A DNA stretch of 64,000 nucleotides from an uncultured Gammaproteobacteria bacterium (GCA_964596735.1 CAZQVF010000006.1:24152-88151), one strand, 5' to 3'; positions 7,927 to 37,842 are shown, numbered from the stretch's first letter. Numbers and translations are program-made. The notes: a model not told the origin generated them from the letters alone.

Positions 7927-8677
7927 AGCCCCTGACTATAAAATTGTTGCGGTTCTTCCTGCTTACAACGCAGAAAAAACATTAAAAAAAACCTTACATG
8001 ACATTGATCAAAATTGGGTCGATGAGATTATTTTAGTTGATGATGCCAGCCAAGATAATACTGTAGACCTAAGTAAAAAACTTGGGTTAAAAACATTTAA
8101 ACACAATAAAAACTTAGGATATGGAGGAAATCAAAAAACTTGCTATGAACAAGCTTTAAAATTAAAGGCTGATATTATAATTATGATTCATCCTGATCAC
8201 CAATATGATCCTACTTATATTCCTCAAATTGTTCTTCCTATTATCCGAGGTAAGGCTGATGCTGTTTTTGGCTCACGAATAATGGTTAAAGGGTGGGCCC
8301 TAGAAGGAGGAATGCCTTTATGGAAATATTTAGCTAATATCTTCTTAACCAAGATAGAAAATCTTTTTCTGGGCTTAAAACTCACTGAATATCACTCTGG
8401 TTTTCGGGCTTATCATTCTAAAATTTTTAAAAATATCCCTTTTAAAAAATTTTCAGATGACTTTGTTTTCGATACTGAAATTATTGTTCAACTCAAAATT
8501 CACAAATTTAAAATTAGAGAAATTCCTATTACCACTCGCTATTTTAAAGACGCCTCTATGATTGGATTTAGAAGGGGCGCTCAATATGGAATGGATATTT
8601 TAAAAGTACTTTTTAATTTTACTTTATCACGACTAAATATAAAAAAAGATCCCCGTTTTAAAAAAAATGACAATTAA
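7916..8677 (+). CDS. GT2 glycosyltransferase (Dpm1/polyprenyl-phosphate sugar synthase-like)
   Basis: VLPAYNAEKTL ... DDASQDNT GT2 N-terminal motifs, about 250 aa. Confidence 0.8.
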   Translation: MSIKAPDYKIVAVLPAYNAEKTLKKTLHDIDQNWVDEIILVDDASQDNTVDLSKKLGLKTFKHNKNLGYGGNQKTCYEQALKLKADIIIMIHPDHQYDPTYIPQIVLPIIRGKADAVFGSRIMVKGWALEGGMPLWKYLANIFLTKIENLFLGLKLTEYHSGFRAYHSKIFKNIPFKKFSDDFVFDTEIIVQLKIHKFKIREIPITTRYFKDASMIGFRRGAQYGMDILKVLFNFTLSRLNIKKDPRFKKNDN

Positions 8678-34406: not shown

Positions 34407-34682
34407 ATGAACAAAAAAGAATTAATCGAAGCCTTAACCAAAAAAGGTAAATGTTGTTCAAAAGCAGAAACAAGCAGATGCTTAAATGCTTTTGTTGAAA
34501 TTATTAAAACAACCTTAAAAGGAGGAGGGAAAGTAGTTATTGCTGGTTTTGGTACTTTTTCAGTTAAAAAAAGAGCAGCTCGAATTGGAGTTAACCCTCA
34601 AACTGGAGCAAGGATTCAAATTCCTGCCATGAGAGTTCCGAAATTTAAAGCAGGACAAGACTTTAAAAAGGTTGTTAAATAG
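34407..34682 (+). CDS. hup: HU family DNA-binding protein
   Basis: MNKKELIEALT...GFGTF...R.GRNPQTG pattern, 91 aa. Confidence 0.85.
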   Translation: MNKKELIEALTKKGKCCSKAETSRCLNAFVEIIKTTLKGGGKVVIAGFGTFSVKKRAARIGVNPQTGARIQIPAMRVPKFKAGQDFKKVVK

Positions 34683-34838
34683 TTTTTTACACTTATATAA
34701 AAAAAGGCCTTTTAAGGGGTCTTTTTTTAATTTAAAAAAGCCTTAAAGGGCTATATTAAAACAATGTAACGTTTTTAGCTTTAAATCGTCTTAATTAGTA
34801 GTGCTAGACTAGTATTTAGAAAACTAAAAATATTTTGT

Positions 34839-34873
34839 GCCAGGGTATGTCCAATTAAGGCCCCTGGCTTTTT
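34839..34873 (+). terminator. hairpin (GCCAGGG...CCCTGGC) plus T5, candidate hup terminator or 3' end of a small RNA
   Basis: 7-bp GC-rich inverted repeat followed by TTTTT, lying 157 nt after the hup stop. Confidence 0.35.
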
Positions 34874-35162
34874 ATTGTTAAATAGTATGGTTTTATAACG
34901 AAATACGAACTTTTTTGAAAATAATTATTAGGGGTTTATGATTTAGAAATTTTTCACTCTTACAACCCCGCAAAATTCGGGAGAATAAAAAGAAAAGGTT
35001 TAGGGGAGGGAATTTTTATCTGCCCTTTTATCCAACCGAAGTTTTATAAAGGCGGGTTTTCTCGTCCAAACGTGTTTTTTTATTTCGCCTTGCCAAATGC
35101 GCCGCCGAAACGCAAATATTATGTTATCCACAGTGTAGACTTGACGAATTCTTTCCGAATTG

Positions 35163-35193
35163 GTACAGTACTGATGTACTATTACAACAGTAC
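35163..35193 (+). promoter_or_regulatory. trp-operator-like GTAC array (GTACAGTACtgatGTACTattacaacAGTAC)
   Basis: Four GTAC motifs end 7 nt before the ATG of the TrpR-like gene. GTACT-N8-AGTAC has the same architecture as the E. coli trp operator GTACTAGTTAACTAGTAC. Confidence 0.4.
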
Positions 35194-35199
35194 ACAATT

Positions 35200-35472
35200 A
35201 TGAATTCAAAATACAAACAAGAATTAATAAATTTATTTATCCAAATTAAAAATCCCAAACTTATGGATGAGTTTTTAGAGGATATTCTTACTCCTGTAGA
35301 ATTTGAAGATATAATTACTCGCTGGCAAATTATTAAACAATTATCAAGAGGCGTTCCTCAAAGAGAAATAGCAAAGCAATTGGGAGTAAGTATAGCCAAA
35401 ATAACACGTGGTTCGCGGGAATTAAAGGATAAAAAAGGAGGATTTAATAAAGTATTGAGCATGAAGAAATAA
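35200..35472 (+). CDS. TrpR-related YerC/YecD-family DNA-binding protein
   Basis: ILTPVEFEDIITRWQII..LSRGVPQREIAKQLGVSIAKITRGSRELK, a helix-turn-helix typical of TrpR-like proteins, 90 aa. Confidence 0.7.
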   Translation: MNSKYKQELINLFIQIKNPKLMDEFLEDILTPVEFEDIITRWQIIKQLSRGVPQREIAKQLGVSIAKITRGSRELKDKKGGFNKVLSMKK

Positions 35473-35572
35473 TAATTTATGCAGATCAATAGTAGAAAAA
35501 ATTATTTAGCTTGGTGGACTTGTTACGATAAAGGCAAGATCCAATTTTAGTATTACTAAATTTTATATAAAG

Positions 35573-35606
35573 CGCCTTGGATCTTGCCAGGGCGTTTTTT
35601 GTTTTT
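35573..35606 (+). terminator. rho-independent terminator
   Basis: 8-bp stem CGCCTTGG/CCAGGGCG with a 6-nt loop, followed by TTTTTTGTTTTTG. Confidence 0.6.
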
Positions 35607-35677
35607 GTCTGAAATAGGTTGGTGAATGATTCGCCAGTCTAAACAGACAAAAAAGATCTTTTGCGAAGGAGGAAATT

Positions 35678-36772
35678 ATGCCGTTTCGTACTGACGTATC
35701 CGAAAAAAAAATGGTGGGGATAGGAATCGACATCACAGAGGTCTGCAACCGCAAATGCCCAACTTGCTTCGTAGCTCACACGCCACGCAACATGACACTG
35801 GAGATGTTCCAATGTATTGTTGACCAAGGGATCGAAATGGGTTTCACAGAGCTGTATATACTGGGTGGCGAGCCCACTACCCACCCCAACATTATGGAGT
35901 GCCTACAGTACATAAAAGGTAAGTTTAGCCTCGTGATTCTTGTTACGAATATGGATCGCCTGGCAGACAAGGCTTTTTGTGTGGCAGTAGAGAAAATGGG
36001 TGTGATTATTGCTGGACAACGCCACACGCTTGCTTCAGATAGTGATAACAGTAAGATGGAGTACCTGCTCACGGGTGGTAATCACCTCAATAGCTCTCAC
36101 CAGGCATGGGAGAACGTAGCCTTGTTTTTCCCTGCTAACCGTGTCTGCGTGCAGTGTTGTATCACGGCGCCAGTGGTCAAGAACGGCAGTATTTACGAGG
36201 TATTCCGCTGGTGTCGCCGGATGGGATATGAACCCGTAATGGAGTTCACTAAGGAAGGAGGTGGCTTCAAGCGTGGTTGTAGTTTAGATGTGGATCCAAC
36301 CACTATGCTCAGCGTGCTCGAGGAACTCCGCCGCATCGACCAGCAGGAATTCGACCTACCTGGCGCGGATTTACTCTCACCTCAAGCCTACGGGAAGACG
36401 TGTCACATGCAGGAAACCTCAATCCATTTTTGCGTGGACGGCGAGGCAATTCCTTGTGTGGGGTATCCGGCCTTAAGCTACGGTAACATTATAACCACCG
36501 GAATCAGGGAGATGCTCGGACATCCACTCAGAGTTCACATCTCCAATCCGCAGGCCTGGGTGTATGGTTACTGCCGTGATGAGTGCCCTCACTTTGACCT
36601 ATGCACTGGTGGCTGTCGTGGTTCGAGTTTCGACATGTCTGGGTGTTATCGGGCGAGTTTCTATTACTGCCCGTATATCCCGCGCGAGCGTCTTACTCTC
36701 GTTGACATGATTCCTCCCTCCTGTGCTGGCTGTCCTCTCGAGGGCAAACCGGCCTGTAATCCTCGGCGTTAA
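35678..36772 (+). CDS. radical SAM enzyme with C-terminal SPASM/twitch-like Cys cluster (peptide/protein maturase-like), GC-rich, horizontally acquired
   Basis: CNRKCPTC (CxxxCxxC), an ILGGEPTTHP glycine-rich SAM motif, and C-terminal CRDECPHFDLCTGGC plus CAGCPLEGKPAC clusters. AAGGAGG lies 5 nt upstream. The ORF is markedly GC-rich compared with its flanks. Confidence 0.85.
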   Translation: MPFRTDVSEKKMVGIGIDITEVCNRKCPTCFVAHTPRNMTLEMFQCIVDQGIEMGFTELYILGGEPTTHPNIMECLQYIKGKFSLVILVTNMDRLADKAFCVAVEKMGVIIAGQRHTLASDSDNSKMEYLLTGGNHLNSSHQAWENVALFFPANRVCVQCCITAPVVKNGSIYEVFRWCRRMGYEPVMEFTKEGGGFKRGCSLDVDPTTMLSVLEELRRIDQQEFDLPGADLLSPQAYGKTCHMQETSIHFCVDGEAIPCVGYPALSYGNIITTGIREMLGHPLRVHISNPQAWVYGYCRDECPHFDLCTGGCRGSSFDMSGCYRASFYYCPYIPRERLTLVDMIPPSCAGCPLEGKPACNPRR

Positions 36773-36785
36773 TGTGCCGATATAG

Positions 36786-36835
36786 GGTAGGAGCTGTAAT
36801 AATTAAACATTACAGCTTCTACCTACCTTCCCTCA
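36786..36835 (+). terminator. long hairpin terminator
   Basis: 15-bp stem GGTAGGAGCTGTAAT/ATTACAGCTTCTACC (one G·U pair), an 8-nt loop, then a T-rich tail. Confidence 0.55.
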
Positions 36836-36865
36836 TTTTAAAATCTGTGAAATAATAACACTATT

Positions 36866-37585
36866 ATGATATCAATATATAAAAGACAATTTAGAATAAT
36901 TAAAAAATACTTAGGAATTAAAAAGATTATTTCAATTCGTTTTTCTAATACCAAAACCTTGAATTTTAAAAAATATAAAGATACAGTTTGCACAGCTTTG
37001 GCTCGAAGTTTCAAAAATAATATCTCTACATATATAGATAGACAAAAGGGACAATTGTGCCCTGGTGGCAATTATTTTTTGAACATTACTCACCTGTCAA
37101 AAAAAGAAATTTGTAACGTGTATATTAAAGACGAAAAAGTTTTTAAAAATAATACTGTCTGCTCCCTTTTTTTAAAAAAGTTGCCCAAATATCCTTCTTT
37201 AGCACAAAAAAGATATATATTATTTACTCCATTAAGTGAAGAAATTAGAAAACCCGATGTAATAATTTTTTTGACTACTCCAGCACAGGCTGGTAGAATT
37301 TTAGGGGTAAGTGTTTATAAGAAATTATCTCAACCTTTAATAATGCCGGCATTATCAACCTGTGCTAGTATATATGCACCAATTGAATCTAATAGAATCC
37401 ATTTAAATTTTATTGATTATTACGACCGGTATTACCAAGGAAAACAAAATGGACAATTGCTTTGGAAAGATGAAGAGCTGATTGTCTCAATGCCATATGG
37501 TATTTTTAAAGAAATAATCAAGTGTATTCCGCTGTCGGCTCATGGAAATTATAGACCAAAAATAAAACCGCAAAAAGTTGAGTAG
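36866..37585 (+). CDS. hypothetical Cys-containing basic protein (possibly DUF169-like; unverified)
   Basis: 239-aa ORF with native AT-rich composition; conserved-looking LCPGGNYF and STCASIYAP segments. Confidence 0.3.
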   Translation: MISIYKRQFRIIKKYLGIKKIISIRFSNTKTLNFKKYKDTVCTALARSFKNNISTYIDRQKGQLCPGGNYFLNITHLSKKEICNVYIKDEKVFKNNTVCSLFLKKLPKYPSLAQKRYILFTPLSEEIRKPDVIIFLTTPAQAGRILGVSVYKKLSQPLIMPALSTCASIYAPIESNRIHLNFIDYYDRYYQGKQNGQLLWKDEELIVSMPYGIFKEIIKCIPLSAHGNYRPKIKPQKVE

Positions 37586-37685
37586 TTATAAACCATGTGG
37601 CGTGCCAGTACATTGGCACAAAAAAATACGGTTGGGCGATATACACCGCCTACCGAATGTCGTTCGAAAACCAAAAAGTTTTTAT

Positions 37686-37759
37686 TGGTACCCCCAGTAG
37701 GAATCGAACCTACGTCAACTGCTTAAGAGGCAGCTGCTTTACCATTAAGCTATGGGGGC
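37686..37759 (-). tRNA. tRNA-Lys (anticodon CUU), CCA encoded
   Basis: Cloverleaf GCCCCCA/TGGGGGT acceptor, GCTGC-CTCTTAA-GCAGT anticodon arm, GGTTCGATTCC T-arm, 3' ACCA. Confidence 0.85.
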
Positions 37760-37770
37760 TTTAAATACAA

Positions 37771-37842
37771 TGCCTCCGAAGGGAATCGAACCCCTATTTA
37801 CAGTTCCGAAGACTGTCGTGTTATCCATTACACCACGGAGGC
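37771..37842 (-). tRNA. tRNA-Arg (anticodon UCG)
   Basis: GCCTCCG/CGGAGGC acceptor, ACAGT-CTTCGGA-ACTGT anticodon arm, GGTTCGATTCC T-arm, discriminator A. Confidence 0.85.

What the first reader, a model, noticed from the sequence alone, without database searches (positions are those of the whole stretch)
35560..36840. GC-rich single-gene island encoding an orphan radical SAM/SPASM maturase-like enzyme
The ORF 35678..36772 is conspicuously GC-rich: about half G+C by eye, with GGC/CGC/CTG/GCC codons, and the track shows spurious antisense ORFs across it. Every flanking gene is AT-rich. The protein has the rSAM CxxxCxxC cluster (CNRKCPTC), a glycine-rich SAM motif (ILGGEPTTHP) and C-terminal cysteine clusters (CRDECPHFDLCTGGC, CAGCPLEGKPAC) of the SPASM/twitch kind. 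That kind of domain is found in peptide/protein-modifying rSAM enzymes such as anSME, PqqE, AlbA, QhpD and ranthipeptide maturases. The gene has its own strong Shine-Dalgarno (AAGGAGG) and is bracketed by rho-independent terminators at 35573..35606 and 36786..36835. This looks like a recently acquired self-contained transcription unit in a CPR-like genome. No precursor peptide, sulfatase or partner enzyme is visible in the window, so the substrate is unknown.
Basis: partly seen in the sequence, partly recalled or inferred. Interest (0 to 1): 0.85.

Follow-up and report, generated by a model that had tools for sequence, protein, structure and literature searches.

The report
Tryptophan-controlled radical SAM operon
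The GC-rich gene is real but is not an orphan import: it is the enzyme gene of a conserved operon (Trp repressor, Trp-codon leader with attenuator, radical SAM/SPASM enzyme, DUF169 protein) whose controls predict induction when tryptophan runs short, which points to an undescribed tryptophan-related enzyme.

Summary
The ORF 35678..36772 is real. It has 51.3% G+C against 33% for the window, and GC3 of 0.56 against 0.24±0.03 for the other ORFs. It encodes a divergent radical SAM/SPASM enzyme. It is not an orphan, not a self-contained unit, and not demonstrably a recent import. About 110 homologues exist, mostly in Patescibacteria. In the close family the gene is followed by a DUF169 gene (window 36866..37585).

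In the window's clade the operon reads: sigma-70-like promoter, canonical TrpR operator (GTACT-N8-AGTAC, 35168..35193), trpR-like gene (35200..35472), a 23-codon leader ORF with tandem Trp codons (35479..35550), then alternative antiterminator and terminator hairpins. A sister clade has a T-box leader with a UGG specifier instead. Other members sit beside TrpRS or tRNA-Trp.

The rSAM and DUF169 trees agree and synonymous sites are near saturation. The rSAM is G+C-richer than DUF169 in 19 of 19 loci, so the excess is a long-standing, unexplained property of this gene. Three independent assemblies reproduce both junctions.

Best reading: a Trp-starvation-induced enzyme system, most likely supplying tryptophan. 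Its chemistry is unknown.

The parts
35141..35169 (+). Sigma-70-like promoter of the operon (-35 TTGACG, 17-nt spacer, -10 TACAGT)
   Evidence: Promoter scan. A TTGAC(A/G) -35 and a -10 hexamer stand at the same place upstream of trpR in L001, L005, L013, L041, L042 and L043 (read by eye).
35168..35193 (.). TrpR-type operator: two overlapping GTACT-N8-AGTAC sites between the -10 hexamer and the trpR start
   Evidence: These are the only matches to GTACTN8AGTAC (up to 1 mismatch) in the 64-kb window. The motif is perfect at the same position in L001/L006 and L041 and has 1-2 mismatches in L004, L005, L013, L042 and L043. The geometry equals the E. coli trp operator GTACT-AGTTAACT-AGTAC (own knowledge).
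35200..35472 (+). trpR-like repressor gene (90 aa)
   Evidence: PF01371 scores 78.4 bits (cut-off 27). TIGR01321 TrpR scores 67.9 (cut-off 67.25). It aligns to E. coli TrpR structures at E = 2e-7, with LTP, TR and ITRGS stretches kept. By my recollection of the E. coli numbering these hold corepressor/DNA contacts T44, R54, T81, R84 and G85.
35479..35550 (+). Leader ORF (trpL-like), MQINSRKNYLAWWTCYDKGKIQF, with tandem Trp codons at 35512..35517; it starts 6 nt after the trpR stop
   Evidence: Homologous leader ORFs carry WW or WWW in 8 of 10 loci and a single W at the same place in 2 of 10.
35515..35522 (+). Attenuator region 1 (TGGACTTG, includes the second Trp codon); pairs with region 2 when no ribosome is present
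   Evidence: Minimum-free-energy fold of the leader. L001 shows a matching double change (CGGACTTGC with GCAAGATCCG), read.
35533..35544 (+). Attenuator region 2 (GGCAAGATCCAA), the last codons of the leader ORF and the 5' arm of the antiterminator
   Evidence: Duplex with region 3 is -13.7 kcal/mol. Across 9 loci 86% of cells pair, against 17-63% when the partner is slid, and 3 pairs change on both sides. Region 2 starts 16-22 nt after the W-run in all 10 loci.
35577..35588 (+). Attenuator region 3 (TTGGATCTTGCC), shared by the antiterminator and the terminator
   Evidence: The two helices are mutually exclusive because both use these bases.
35569..35606 (+). Attenuator terminator (regions 3:4): 12-pair G+C-rich hairpin followed by TTTTTTGTTTTT
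Evidence: Terminator scan. 90% of cells pair across 9 loci and 3 pairs change on both sides.
35602..35653 (+). Conserved second leader hairpin: the U-tract pairs with the downstream A-tract around an inner stem-loop; role unknown
   Evidence: RNAalifold on 9 loci gives 19 pairs, 6 of them with compensatory changes.
35666..35672 (+). Shine-Dalgarno AAGGAGG of the rSAM gene
   Evidence: Sequence.
35678..36772 (+). Radical SAM/SPASM enzyme gene (364 aa), the G+C-rich ORF
   Evidence: Invariant Cys: 23/27/30 (rSAM cluster); 242 and 260 (C-x12-G-x4-C); 299/303/309/313; 323/331; plus 160/161 and 349/352/360.
36786..36823 (+). Intercistronic 15-bp stem-loop after the rSAM stop codon (partial terminator or mRNA-stability element)
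   Evidence: I11, 93% complementary. A strong stem-loop (-18 to -35 kcal/mol) occupies this position in all 15 loci examined, often followed by a T-run.
36866..37585 (+). DUF169 partner gene (239 aa)

Best explanation
The G+C-rich ORF is the catalytic gene of a tryptophan-responsive operon: promoter / TrpR operator - trpR - leader ORF with tandem Trp codons - attenuator - rSAM/SPASM - stem-loop - DUF169.

What the sequence and the comparisons support. (1) The architecture is that of a classic ribosome-mediated trp attenuator. A ribosome stalled at the WW codons would leave region 2 free to pair with region 3, which prevents the terminator and lets RNA polymerase read into the rSAM gene. A ribosome that reaches the leader stop codon would cover region 2, so the 3:4 terminator forms. 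A TrpR orthologue would add repression at a canonical operator. (2) In sister lineages the same rSAM-DUF169 pair is driven by a T-box leader whose specifier reads UGG (Trp). Other family members lie beside TrpRS or tRNA-Trp.

Inferred. Expression rises when charged tRNA-Trp or free Trp is scarce. The enzyme therefore most likely acts to restore the tryptophan or Trp-tRNA supply, by biosynthesis or salvage from an unidentified precursor. The multi-cluster rSAM would be the catalyst. DUF169, which is replaced by a flavin-reductase-like protein in other lineages, would be a redox or accessory partner. The chemistry is unknown.

The G+C excess is a long-maintained property of this gene, not a mark of recent transfer. 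Its cause is unexplained.
For: Regulation.
- The operator GTACT-N8-AGTAC occurs only at 35168..35193 in the window and at the same place in other loci.
- The TrpR family models are passed and the stretches holding the ligand and DNA contacts are kept.
- Leader ORFs with WW or WWW occur in 8 of 10 loci.
- The geometry is constant: 16-22 nt from the W-run to region 2, region 2 at the 3' end of the leader ORF, and region 3 inside the terminator.
- Both alternative helices pair in 86-90% of cells, and each has 3 pairs changed on both sides. The A-to-G changes in region 2 of L004 and L013 alter the peptide (I to V, K to E) but are compensated in region 3.
- T-box leaders precede the same operon in 8 distinct loci: L002/L003, L014, L015, L017, L018, L019, L020 and L024. 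Rfam RF00230 gives E = 4e-11 and 5.6e-9, and the canonical GGUGG(U/C)ACC(G/A)CG...CUCGUCC motif is present.
- UGG+G is invariant directly before the 3' strand of the basal Stem I helix in the 7 aligned leaders and is also seen in L024.
- The acceptor-pairing base is C or U, which fits the G73 of the tRNA-Trp gene found in L024.

TrpRS linkage.
- TrpRS directly follows DUF169 in L002/L003 (TIGR00233, 303 bits).
- TrpRS is convergent with the rSAM in L047 (285 bits).
- TrpRS follows rSAM-Flavin_Reduct in L026, L027 and L028 (235-266 bits); tblastn shows the same arrangement in L031 and L033.

Cassette unity.
- rSAM, DUF169 and TrpR identities co-vary and the trees are congruent.
- Genes outside the cassette differ in every genome.

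Enzyme.
- All rSAM and SPASM Cys are invariant. The model is confident and resembles SuiB, CteB, anSME, PqqE and BlsE.
Against: - No expression or biochemical data exist; every regulatory step is inferred from sequence.
- Two of 10 leaders (L005, L042) have a single Trp codon.
- The T-box matches are below Rfam's gathering score (54 and 46 bits against 93). I read the specifier by inspection of an unusually short Stem I.
- The strong stem-loop between rSAM and DUF169 could terminate transcription, so co-regulation of DUF169 is not certain.
- Some neighbours are not Trp-related: TyrRS in L019, CysK/M in L014 and a racemase in L007.
- I could not check whether these genomes lack trpA-E or trpB.
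- The nearest solved structures are peptide or protein modifiers, which fits a maturase role as well as a small-molecule role.
- A related branch at about 40% identity (Smithella-type, L011, L030, L048) sits in NRPS-like clusters without Trp signals.
- The G+C excess remains unexplained.
Confidence: 0.7

Rival explanations
1. The ORF is a recently acquired single-gene island from a G+C-richer donor. It is an orphan peptide or protein maturase with its own transcription unit.
For: Composition is extreme at all three codon positions, and fourfold sites are nearly equimolar (A .18, C .29, G .24, T .29), like a gene from a genome of about 50% G+C. The G+C steps fall exactly at the ORF ends. The size of the excess varies among loci (GC3 offset +0.01 to +0.34), as differing degrees of amelioration would give. 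tRNA-Lys and tRNA-Arg genes lie 100-260 nt beyond DUF169.
Against: The flanking cassette genes have host composition, yet they co-diverge with the rSAM. Fourfold sites are near saturation against the nearest relative while both copies keep the same G+C contrast. The rSAM is richer than DUF169 in 19 of 19 loci. There are no direct repeats, integrase or transposase. The upstream 'terminator' belongs to an attenuator that feeds into the gene.
Confidence: 0.06
2. A RiPP system. The small W-rich ORF (35479..35550) is a precursor peptide, the rSAM/SPASM enzyme cross-links its Trp residues as StrB/SuiB, DarE or WgkB do, and the hairpin after it sets the ratio of precursor to enzyme.
For: The small ORF lies directly upstream of a SPASM rSAM gene. 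Its WW and G-K-(I/V) motifs are conserved. The best structural matches include SuiB, CteB and SkfB. There are weak hits to WgkB, DynA and cyclophane-forming maturase models.
Against: The rSAM-DUF169 pair is conserved in 8 or more loci that have a T-box and no such ORF. There is no room for a RiPP recognition element, because the cluster motif starts at residue 23. No protease or exporter is conserved. Changes in the G-K-I codons alter the peptide but are compensated in RNA region 3. The TrpR operator, T-box and TrpRS links are not expected for a RiPP.
Confidence: 0.05
3. A variant within the Trp-regulon frame. The rSAM is a protein maturase, like anSME with its sulfatase. It installs a post-translational modification or cofactor in DUF169, and DUF169 is the real Trp-related enzyme.
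For: Gene order rSAM then DUF169 is fixed and the two co-evolve. SPASM enzymes are typically peptide or protein modifiers. DUF169 has invariant or near-invariant Cys, Gln, Tyr, Asp and Arg residues and a fold with no solved relative.
Against: Family members at 36-56% identity pair with a flavin-reductase-like protein instead of DUF169 (L047, L009, L026-L028). That pattern suggests an exchangeable accessory or redox partner rather than a dedicated substrate. L020 and L023 lack DUF169 altogether.
Confidence: 0.15
4. The target is the translation apparatus for Trp rather than the amino acid. The enzyme would modify tRNA-Trp, mature TrpRS, or work in a tRNA-dependent route to Trp-tRNA.
For: TrpRS is adjacent in three separate branches and tRNA-Trp in one. 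T-box and attenuator both sense tRNA-Trp charging. The literature notes DUF169 as an occasional neighbour of SepRS and TYW1 in archaea (PMC8762117).
Against: TrpR senses free L-Trp (own knowledge), and TrpR plus WW attenuation is the control pattern of Trp biosynthesis operons. The enzyme has no recognisable RNA-binding domain. TrpRS is absent from most cassettes.
Confidence: 0.12
5. The G+C-rich block is an assembly chimera.
For: The composition changes abruptly at both ORF ends.
Against: Contigs from three other samples (two JGI, one ENA) are 100% identical to the window across both junctions over 2.1-3.4 kb. The same contrast is seen in a genome assembled as one 695-kb contig (CP179891.1, L002) and in the 1.19-Mb chromosome OY970181.1 (L001/L006). 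Reading frames and the regulatory RNA are continuous across the junctions.
Confidence: 0.01

Closest known systems
E. coli trp operon control (TrpR repression plus trpL ribosome-mediated attenuation)
   Same: The operator has GTACT-N8-AGTAC geometry. A short leader ORF carries tandem Trp codons. Alternative 1:2, 2:3 and 3:4 hairpins end in a U-run. The spacing between the Trp codons, region 2 and the leader stop codon is the same.
   Different: The regulated genes are a radical SAM/SPASM enzyme and DUF169, not trpEDCBA. The repressor gene lies inside the operon, directly before the leader. An extra conserved hairpin follows the terminator.
Chlamydia trachomatis trpRBA operon (trpR, an intergenic leader with Trp codons, then trpBA salvage genes); comparison from own knowledge
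   Same: The order is the same: repressor gene, Trp-codon leader/attenuator, effector genes. The host is also a reduced-genome, host-dependent bacterium.
   Different: The effector genes here are rSAM and DUF169 instead of tryptophan synthase. No link to indole salvage has been shown.
Trp-specific T-box leaders of Firmicutes (trpS, trp operon, Trp transporters)
   Same: The sister-clade leaders have the T-box sequence, the terminator/antiterminator pair and a UGG specifier, and one operon includes trpS.
   Different: Stem I is very short and the matches fall below Rfam's gathering score. The hosts are Patescibacteria and the cargo is the rSAM-DUF169 pair.
SPASM/twitch radical SAM enzymes (anSME, SuiB/StrB, CteB, PqqE, BlsE)
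   Same: CxxxCxxC and GGE motifs, a partial TIM-barrel fold, and a C-terminal C-x12-G-x4-C ... C-x3-C-x5-C-x3-C cluster domain. Foldseek TM-scores are 0.54-0.66.
   Different: No subfamily model comes near its cut-off. There is no RRE domain. It has extra invariant Cys (160/161 and 349/352/360). It is under Trp control and has a DUF169 or flavin-reductase-like partner instead of a peptide, sulfatase or PqqA/D.
DUF169 (PF02596, COG2043)
   Same: The window protein is a clear member (89 bits).
   Different: The family has no assigned function in the papers found. Its link to an rSAM enzyme and to Trp regulation does not appear there.

Membership tests
Radical SAM superfamily (PF04055) | CxxxCxxC motif that binds the SAM-cleaving [4Fe-4S] cluster | tested here: met
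   C23-x3-C27-x2-C30 is invariant in 56 sequences.
Radical SAM superfamily (PF04055) | Pfam model at or above the gathering score; GGE SAM-binding motif; partial TIM-barrel fold | tested here: met
   30.6 bits against 29.5. G63-G64-E65 are invariant. The model has pLDDT 89 and Foldseek gives E down to 1e-12 against rSAM structures.
SPASM domain (TIGR04085 / PF13186) | Seven-Cys signature CX9-15GX4C ... CX2CX5CX3C ... C for two auxiliary clusters | tested here: met
   C242-x12-G255-x4-C260, then C299-x3-C303-x5-C309-x3-C313 (x3 in place of x2), then C323/C331. All are invariant.
SPASM domain (TIGR04085 / PF13186) | HMM score at or above the curated cut-off | tested here: inconclusive
   26.2 against 27 (TIGR04085) and 16.2 against 21.5 (PF13186) for the window protein. 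Many close homologues carry a precomputed PF13186 hit.
anSME / PqqE / AlbA / ranthipeptide (PapB) / QhpD subfamilies | Equivalog HMM above cut-off, and a cognate substrate gene nearby (sulfatase, PqqA, precursor peptide, QhpC) | tested here: not met
   anSME 16.6 against 349; PqqE 27.9 against 381; AlbA 38 against 850. PapB and the QhpD model are not among the 25 rows shown, whose weakest scores 16.6 bits (37 families matched at E up to 0.1), so neither can approach its cut-off. No such substrate genes occur in any locus.
RiPP rSAM maturase | RiPP recognition element (PqqD-like) and a precursor peptide co-conserved with the enzyme | tested here: not met
   Only 22 residues precede the cluster motif. 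The small W-rich ORF is absent from the T-box-clade loci that keep rSAM-DUF169.
Ribosome-mediated trp attenuator | Short translated leader ORF with two or more consecutive Trp codons | tested here: met
   Window 35479..35550 with TGGTGG at 35512..35517. WW or WWW in 8 of 10 loci. That the ORF is translated is inferred.
Ribosome-mediated trp attenuator | Intrinsic terminator and a mutually exclusive antiterminator that uses the 3' end of the leader ORF, with spacing that fits stalled and released ribosomes | tested here: met
   The W-run to region 2 distance is 16-22 nt in 10 of 10 loci. Both helices show compensatory changes.
Ribosome-mediated trp attenuator | Trp-dependent read-through in vivo or in vitro | not testable with these tools
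   Needs reporter or in-vitro transcription-translation assays.
TrpR (PF01371 / TIGR01321) | Family HMMs above cut-off; corepressor- and DNA-contacting residues kept | tested here: met
   78.4 against 27 and 67.9 against 67.25, the latter only barely. The alignment to E. coli TrpR keeps the LTP, TR and ITRGS stretches; the residue numbers T44, R54, T81, R84 and G85 are from my recollection of the E. coli protein.
TrpR (PF01371 / TIGR01321) | Cognate palindromic operator (GTACT-N8-AGTAC) at a regulated promoter | tested here: met
   The only matches in the window lie at 35168..35193, overlapping the -10 hexamer. The motif is conserved in position in other loci. Binding itself was not tested.
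T-box leader, Trp class (related loci only, not in the window) | T-box sequence with antiterminator/terminator; Rfam RF00230 at or above gathering; specifier UGG followed by a purine | tested here: inconclusive
   The motif and terminator are present in 8 loci. Scores are 54.2 and 46.1 bits against 93, at E = 4e-11 and 5.6e-9. UGG+G is invariant before the basal helix. The whole-window Rfam scan at gathering scores and the sensitive E-value scan of 34600..37700 found no T-box.
DUF169 (PF02596) | Pfam model above the gathering score | tested here: met
   89.3 bits against 27, covering positions 11-207 of the 209-position model.
Horizontally acquired genomic island | Atypical composition, plus phylogenetic incongruence with neighbours, mobility genes or flanking repeats | tested here: not met
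   Composition is atypical. However, the trees are congruent with DUF169, synonymous sites are near saturation, and there are no repeats or mobility genes.

The most novel reading that the evidence does not exclude
The rSAM/SPASM enzyme, with DUF169 or a flavin-reductase-like protein as its partner, is a previously unknown tryptophan-forming or tryptophan-salvaging enzyme that does not belong to the canonical trp pathway. For example, it could couple an indole moiety to a three-carbon amino-acid unit by radical chemistry, by analogy with the C-C cross-links that SPASM enzymes make on Trp side chains. It would be used by CPR bacteria, and by the organisms of the 36-42% branch that carry an archaeal-type TrpRS, if they lack trpA-E. 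That would explain why three different Trp-sensing devices and TrpRS have been recruited to it.
Probability: 0.3. Interest if true: 0.92.

Novelty: new variant of a known kind. Interest (0 to 1): 0.75.

Why it matters
Three classical tryptophan sensors converge on one uncharacterised enzyme pair: a TrpR operator, a WW leader-peptide attenuator and a Trp T-box. TrpRS and tRNA-Trp neighbours add to this. It is the same comparative-genomics signature that has been used to find Trp biosynthesis and transport genes (own knowledge).

The organisms here have tiny genomes, and how they obtain amino acids is an open question. The finding gives a radical SAM family and DUF169 a concrete physiological context that can be tested. 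It also extends trp-type attenuation, TrpR control and short-Stem-I T-boxes to Patescibacteria.

In addition, it documents one gene of an operon holding a G+C content 4-23 points above its co-inherited neighbour across many lineages. Standard models of transfer followed by amelioration do not explain that.

Tried and rejected
- Rfam on the region (E-value mode) and on the whole window (gathering mode) found no known riboswitch or RNA family in the window leader. The only hits were spurious miRNA/sRNA matches and four tRNAs.
- A sequence search of the PDB with the rSAM gave only weak N-terminal hits.
- The afdb50 fold library was unavailable.
- Literature searches for DUF169, COG2043, T-box in CPR, Trp plus radical SAM plus T-box regulon, and Patescibacteria Trp biosynthesis gave no functional information.
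- Amino-acid composition alone does not explain the G+C excess: GC3 and fourfold sites are also raised.
- Classic translational selection is unlikely: NNC and NNG codons rise together, and the ribosomal-protein-size ORFs in the window stay at GC3 of 0.33 or below.
- The excess is not a general property of rSAM genes: other rSAM genes in the same CPR contigs have host composition.
- rSAM-only xenologous replacement is not supported: the rSAM and DUF169 trees are congruent.
- A palindrome TTTAGTA-T-TACTAAA at about 35545..35559 looked like an operator, but it is not conserved in other loci.
- No direct repeats flank the ORF or the cassette.
- The genome-contig scan with a single protein returned only 4 loci.
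Full report
**1. The observation**

The ORF 35678..36772 (+, 364 aa) exists as described. Its G+C is 0.513 against 0.331 for the window. That is z = 6.7 against all 1095-nt windows outside the region, and the highest value elsewhere is 0.402. All codon positions are shifted: GC1 0.54, GC2 0.44 and GC3 0.56. The 58 other ORFs have GC3 of 0.241±0.033 with a maximum of 0.326, and fourfold-site GC is 0.527 against 0.250±0.053. In 100-nt bins the G+C rises from 0.39 to 0.50 at the start codon and falls from 0.54 to 0.23 just after the stop codon.

The CNRKCPTC cluster motif, the GGEP motif and the C-terminal cysteine clusters are present and invariant in 56 homologues. HMM support is marginal. PF04055 scores 30.6 bits against a cut-off of 29.5. 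TIGR04085 (SPASM) scores 26.2 against 27, and PF13186 scores 16.2 against 21.5. No subfamily model comes near its cut-off. An AlphaFold model built on the family alignment is confident (pLDDT 89). It matches BlsE, SuiB, SkfB, PqqE, CteB and anSME with TM-scores of 0.54-0.66.

**2. Not an orphan**

A search of the 5.8-billion-protein collection found 114 relatives. About 80 of them are 51-78% identical, and the ones that carry a taxon name are almost all Patescibacteria (Nealsonbacteria, Gribaldobacteria, Parcubacteria, Paceibacterota). A further branch lies at 35-43% identity. An exhaustive search of 1.84 billion representatives showed a sharply bounded family: 16 clusters below E = 1e-30, then generic SPASM enzymes.

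In the close-family loci with enough downstream DNA, a DUF169 gene follows the rSAM gene on the same strand after 66-234 nt. I counted this in 19 of 21 loci. The two exceptions, L020 and L023, carry a YerC/TrpR-like gene and a second SPASM rSAM instead. In the window the DUF169 gene is 36866..37585 (PF02596, 89 bits).

In the window's own subclade a TrpR-family gene lies just upstream. In the window it is 35200..35472, scoring 78 bits on PF01371 and 67.9 on TIGR01321 against a cut-off of 67.25. Genes beyond these three differ in every genome.

**3. The upstream 'terminator' is an attenuator**

A 23-codon ORF lies between trpR and the rSAM gene. It is 35479..35550 and encodes MQINSRKNYLAWWTCYDKGKIQF. 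It starts 6 nt after the trpR stop codon and has tandem Trp codons at 35512..35517. Homologous leader ORFs have WW or WWW in 8 of 10 loci:

- L001: GWW
- L004: AWWW
- L013: AWW
- L040: SWWW
- L041: NWW
- L043: IWW
- L007: VWWW
- L005 and L042: a single W at the same position

The last codons of the leader, GGCAAGATCCAA at 35533..35544 (region 2), are complementary to TTGGATCTTGCC at 35577..35588 (region 3). Region 3 is the 5' arm and loop of the terminator hairpin at 35569..35598, which is followed by TTTTTTGTTTTT.

The geometry is constant in all 10 loci. Region 2 starts 16-22 nt after the W-run. Region 2 ends between 5 nt past and 15 nt before the first base of the leader stop codon. Region 3 lies inside the terminator.

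On a 9-sequence alignment the antiterminator pairs in 86% of cells, against 17-63% when the partner is slid, and 3 pairs change on both sides. The terminator pairs in 90% of cells, also with 3 such pairs. The region 2 changes in L004 (ATC to GTC) and L013 (AAG to GAG) alter the peptide but are compensated in region 3. This points to constraint on the RNA rather than on the peptide.

In the window the second Trp codon and the following bases (TGGACTTG, 35515..35522) can pair with region 2, giving a 1:2 helix. L001 shows a matching double change. This is the architecture of the E. coli trpL attenuator (own knowledge). The scans on 34600..37700 and on the whole window found no Rfam family in the leader.

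**4. TrpR and its operator**

The TrpR-like protein aligns to E. coli TrpR structures at E = 2e-7. The LTP, TR and ITRGS stretches are kept. By my recollection of the E. coli protein these hold contacts T44, R54, T81, R84 and G85.

Directly upstream of its start codon lies a sigma-70-like promoter: TTGACG, 17 nt, TACAGT, at 35141..35169. Two overlapping copies of GTACT-N8-AGTAC follow at 35168..35193. These are the only matches in the 64-kb window. The same motif stands at the same place in L001/L006 and L041 perfectly, and in L004, L005, L013, L042 and L043 with 1-2 mismatches. GTACT-AGTTAACT-AGTAC is the E. coli trp operator (own knowledge).

The unit therefore reads: promoter/operator, trpR, trpL, attenuator, rSAM, stem-loop, DUF169. 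This layout parallels the Chlamydia trpRBA operon (own knowledge).

**5. Independent Trp signals in sister lineages**

Close-family loci that lack TrpR have a long leader upstream of the rSAM gene. It carries the canonical T-box sequence GGUGG(U/C)ACC(G/A)CG...CUCGUCC and a terminator 115-162 nt before the rSAM start. This holds for L002/L003, L014, L015, L017, L018, L019 and L020, and L024 has the same leader. Rfam RF00230 matches at E = 4e-11 (L019, 54 bits) and 5.6e-9 (L002, 46 bits), below the gathering score of 93. Stem I is very short.

UGG followed by G is invariant directly before the 3' strand of the basal helix in the 7 aligned leaders and is also seen in L024. The alternative frames would read CUG, UUG or GUG inconsistently. 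The base that pairs with the tRNA discriminator is C or U, which fits G73. The tRNA-Trp gene that precedes the T-box in L024 has G73.

TrpRS linkage appears in three branches:

- TrpRS follows DUF169 directly in L002/L003 (TIGR00233, 303 bits).
- A 56%-identical family member (L047) pairs with a Flavin_Reduct protein and is convergent with TrpRS (285 bits).
- In the 36-42% branch the order is wHTH, rSAM, Flavin_Reduct, archaeal-type TrpRS, with TauE added in L028 and L033. TrpRS was confirmed by HMM in L026, L027 and L028 (235-266 bits) and seen by tblastn in L031 and L033.

L007 has a WWW leader and attenuator without a TrpR gene.

Not every neighbour is Trp-related. L019 has TyrRS, L014 has CysK/M and L007 has an amino-acid racemase. 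A Smithella-type branch at about 40% identity sits in NRPS-like clusters.

**6. What it most likely does**

The sequence supports regulatory devices that would raise transcription of the rSAM gene when Trp or charged tRNA-Trp is low. The inference is that the enzyme helps restore that supply. This is the role of genes under TrpR plus WW attenuation or a Trp T-box in studied bacteria: biosynthesis, salvage, transport or TrpRS (own knowledge).

The enzyme has the SAM cluster and a full SPASM signature. It also has extra invariant cysteines at 160/161 and 349/352/360.

The substrate and the chemistry are unknown. A radical route that joins an indole to an amino-acid side-chain carbon, by analogy with SPASM enzymes that cross-link Trp, is only a speculation. 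The searchable literature assigns no function to DUF169/COG2043 and describes no Trp-regulated radical SAM enzyme.

**7. The G+C excess**

The excess is real and family-wide. The rSAM gene is G+C-richer than the adjacent DUF169 gene in 19 of 19 loci, by 0.04 to 0.23 overall and 0.01 to 0.34 at GC3. The window shows the largest GC3 gap. GC1 (0.47-0.62) and GC2 (0.39-0.48) are nearly constant across hosts, while GC3 follows the host with a positive offset. In the window NNC and NNG codons rise together and fourfold sites are nearly equimolar.

Recent transfer is not supported, for five reasons:

- Fourfold sites differ by 57-84% between loci for rSAM, DUF169 and TrpR alike.
- Against the closest relative with DNA (L021, 78% aa identity) they differ by 64%, with 73% expected at saturation. 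Both genomes still keep rSAM GC3 near 0.5 beside a DUF169 gene with GC3 near 0.2.
- The rSAM and DUF169 neighbour-joining trees share their main clusters. Mantel r is 0.43 (p = 0.015, n = 16) and 0.59 (p < 0.0005, n = 14).
- No repeats or mobility genes flank the ORF or the cassette.
- Other rSAM genes on the same CPR contigs have host composition. The Flavin_Reduct-associated relatives show little or no excess.

A second SPASM rSAM found beside the cassette in L013, L020 and L023 is also G+C-rich. Because synonymous sites are near saturation, the raised GC3 looks like a gene-specific equilibrium. I cannot say what maintains it. Candidates are selection on the mRNA or on translation speed, or biased repair or conversion.

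**8. Artefact check**

Contigs from three other samples (two JGI, one ENA) are 100% identical to the window over 2.1-3.4 kb spanning both G+C junctions. The same architecture occurs in a genome assembled as a single 695-kb contig and in a 1.19-Mb chromosome-level MAG.

**9. Verdict**

The interpretation as an orphan, recently acquired, self-contained island is not supported. What is there is a conserved tryptophan-controlled operon for an uncharacterised radical SAM/SPASM enzyme and a DUF169 protein. The regulatory parts are new members of well-known kinds. The regulated enzyme system is a new variant with an unknown and possibly new role in tryptophan supply. The persistent gene-specific G+C excess is a second, unexplained finding.

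Noticed in passing
L002 7632-7894, L019 4693-4907, L014, L015, L017, L018, L020, L024 ~250-545: T-box leaders in Patescibacteria with a very short Stem I: a basal helix, a specifier loop and a 6-bp capped hairpin. They score only 46-54 bits on RF00230, below the gathering score of 93, so standard annotation would miss them.
   Followed up: partly
L013 60-1190; L020 6628-7698; L023 1443-2513: A second SPASM rSAM ('rSAM2', 21-24% identical to the family enzyme) lies next to a YerC/TrpR-like gene and the family rSAM. It is also G+C-rich (0.50-0.55) between AT-rich neighbours. L020 and L023 lack DUF169 and carry an unassigned 155-aa Cys-containing protein instead.
   Followed up: partly
L026, L027, L028, L031, L033 (rSAM at 5001 in L027 and L028): The 36-42% branch forms an operon wHTH - rSAM - Flavin_Reduct - archaeal-type TrpRS, with a TauE/TSUP permease added in L028 and L033. 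A TauE-like permease is also the neighbour of DUF169 in Desulfovibrio alaskensis G20 (PMC4001038).
   Followed up: partly
window 35602-35653: A conserved hairpin follows the attenuator. In it the terminator's U-tract pairs with a downstream A-tract around an inner stem-loop (19 pairs, 6 with compensatory changes). Its role is unknown.
   Followed up: partly
window 36786-36823 and the same position in 14 other loci: A strong G+C-rich stem-loop (-18 to -35 kcal/mol) directly follows the rSAM stop codon in every locus, often with a T-run a few bases later. It may set the rSAM:DUF169 expression ratio or stabilise the upstream mRNA.
   Followed up: partly
window 34683-35140: About 450 nt of non-coding DNA between the HU-like gene and the operon promoter. 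G+C is 0.38-0.41 in its 3' part and it holds several terminator-like hairpins (for example 34857-34871). The sensitive Rfam scan of 34600..37700 found nothing in it. One independent assembly (L046) lacks about 34 nt near 35027-35060.
   Followed up: partly
window 37686-37759 and 37771-37842 (- strand): tRNA-Lys(CTT) and tRNA-Arg(TCG) lie just beyond DUF169, followed by a PilT-like ATPase gene. L001 has the same tRNA pair and a PilT-like gene within 6 kb of its cassette, in a different arrangement.
   Followed up: no
window 35678 versus 35711: Public gene calls for this protein disagree on the start: 353, 273 and 364 aa. The 364-aa start (MPFR...) is the conserved one; M1, F3 and R4 are invariant in the family.
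   Followed up: yes
L017 7256-8653: A FibroRumin-type rSAM peptide maturase (TIGR04136, 365 bits against a cut-off of 400) lies just downstream of DUF169 in one locus. It has host-like composition.
   Followed up: no
L011, L030, L048 (rSAM at 8001, 5001 and 6001): The Smithella-type branch at about 40% identity is followed by a stand-alone Condensation-domain protein. In L048 it sits among AMP-binding, CapK-like and acyltransferase genes, which is a secondary-metabolite-like context for the same rSAM family.
   Followed up: no
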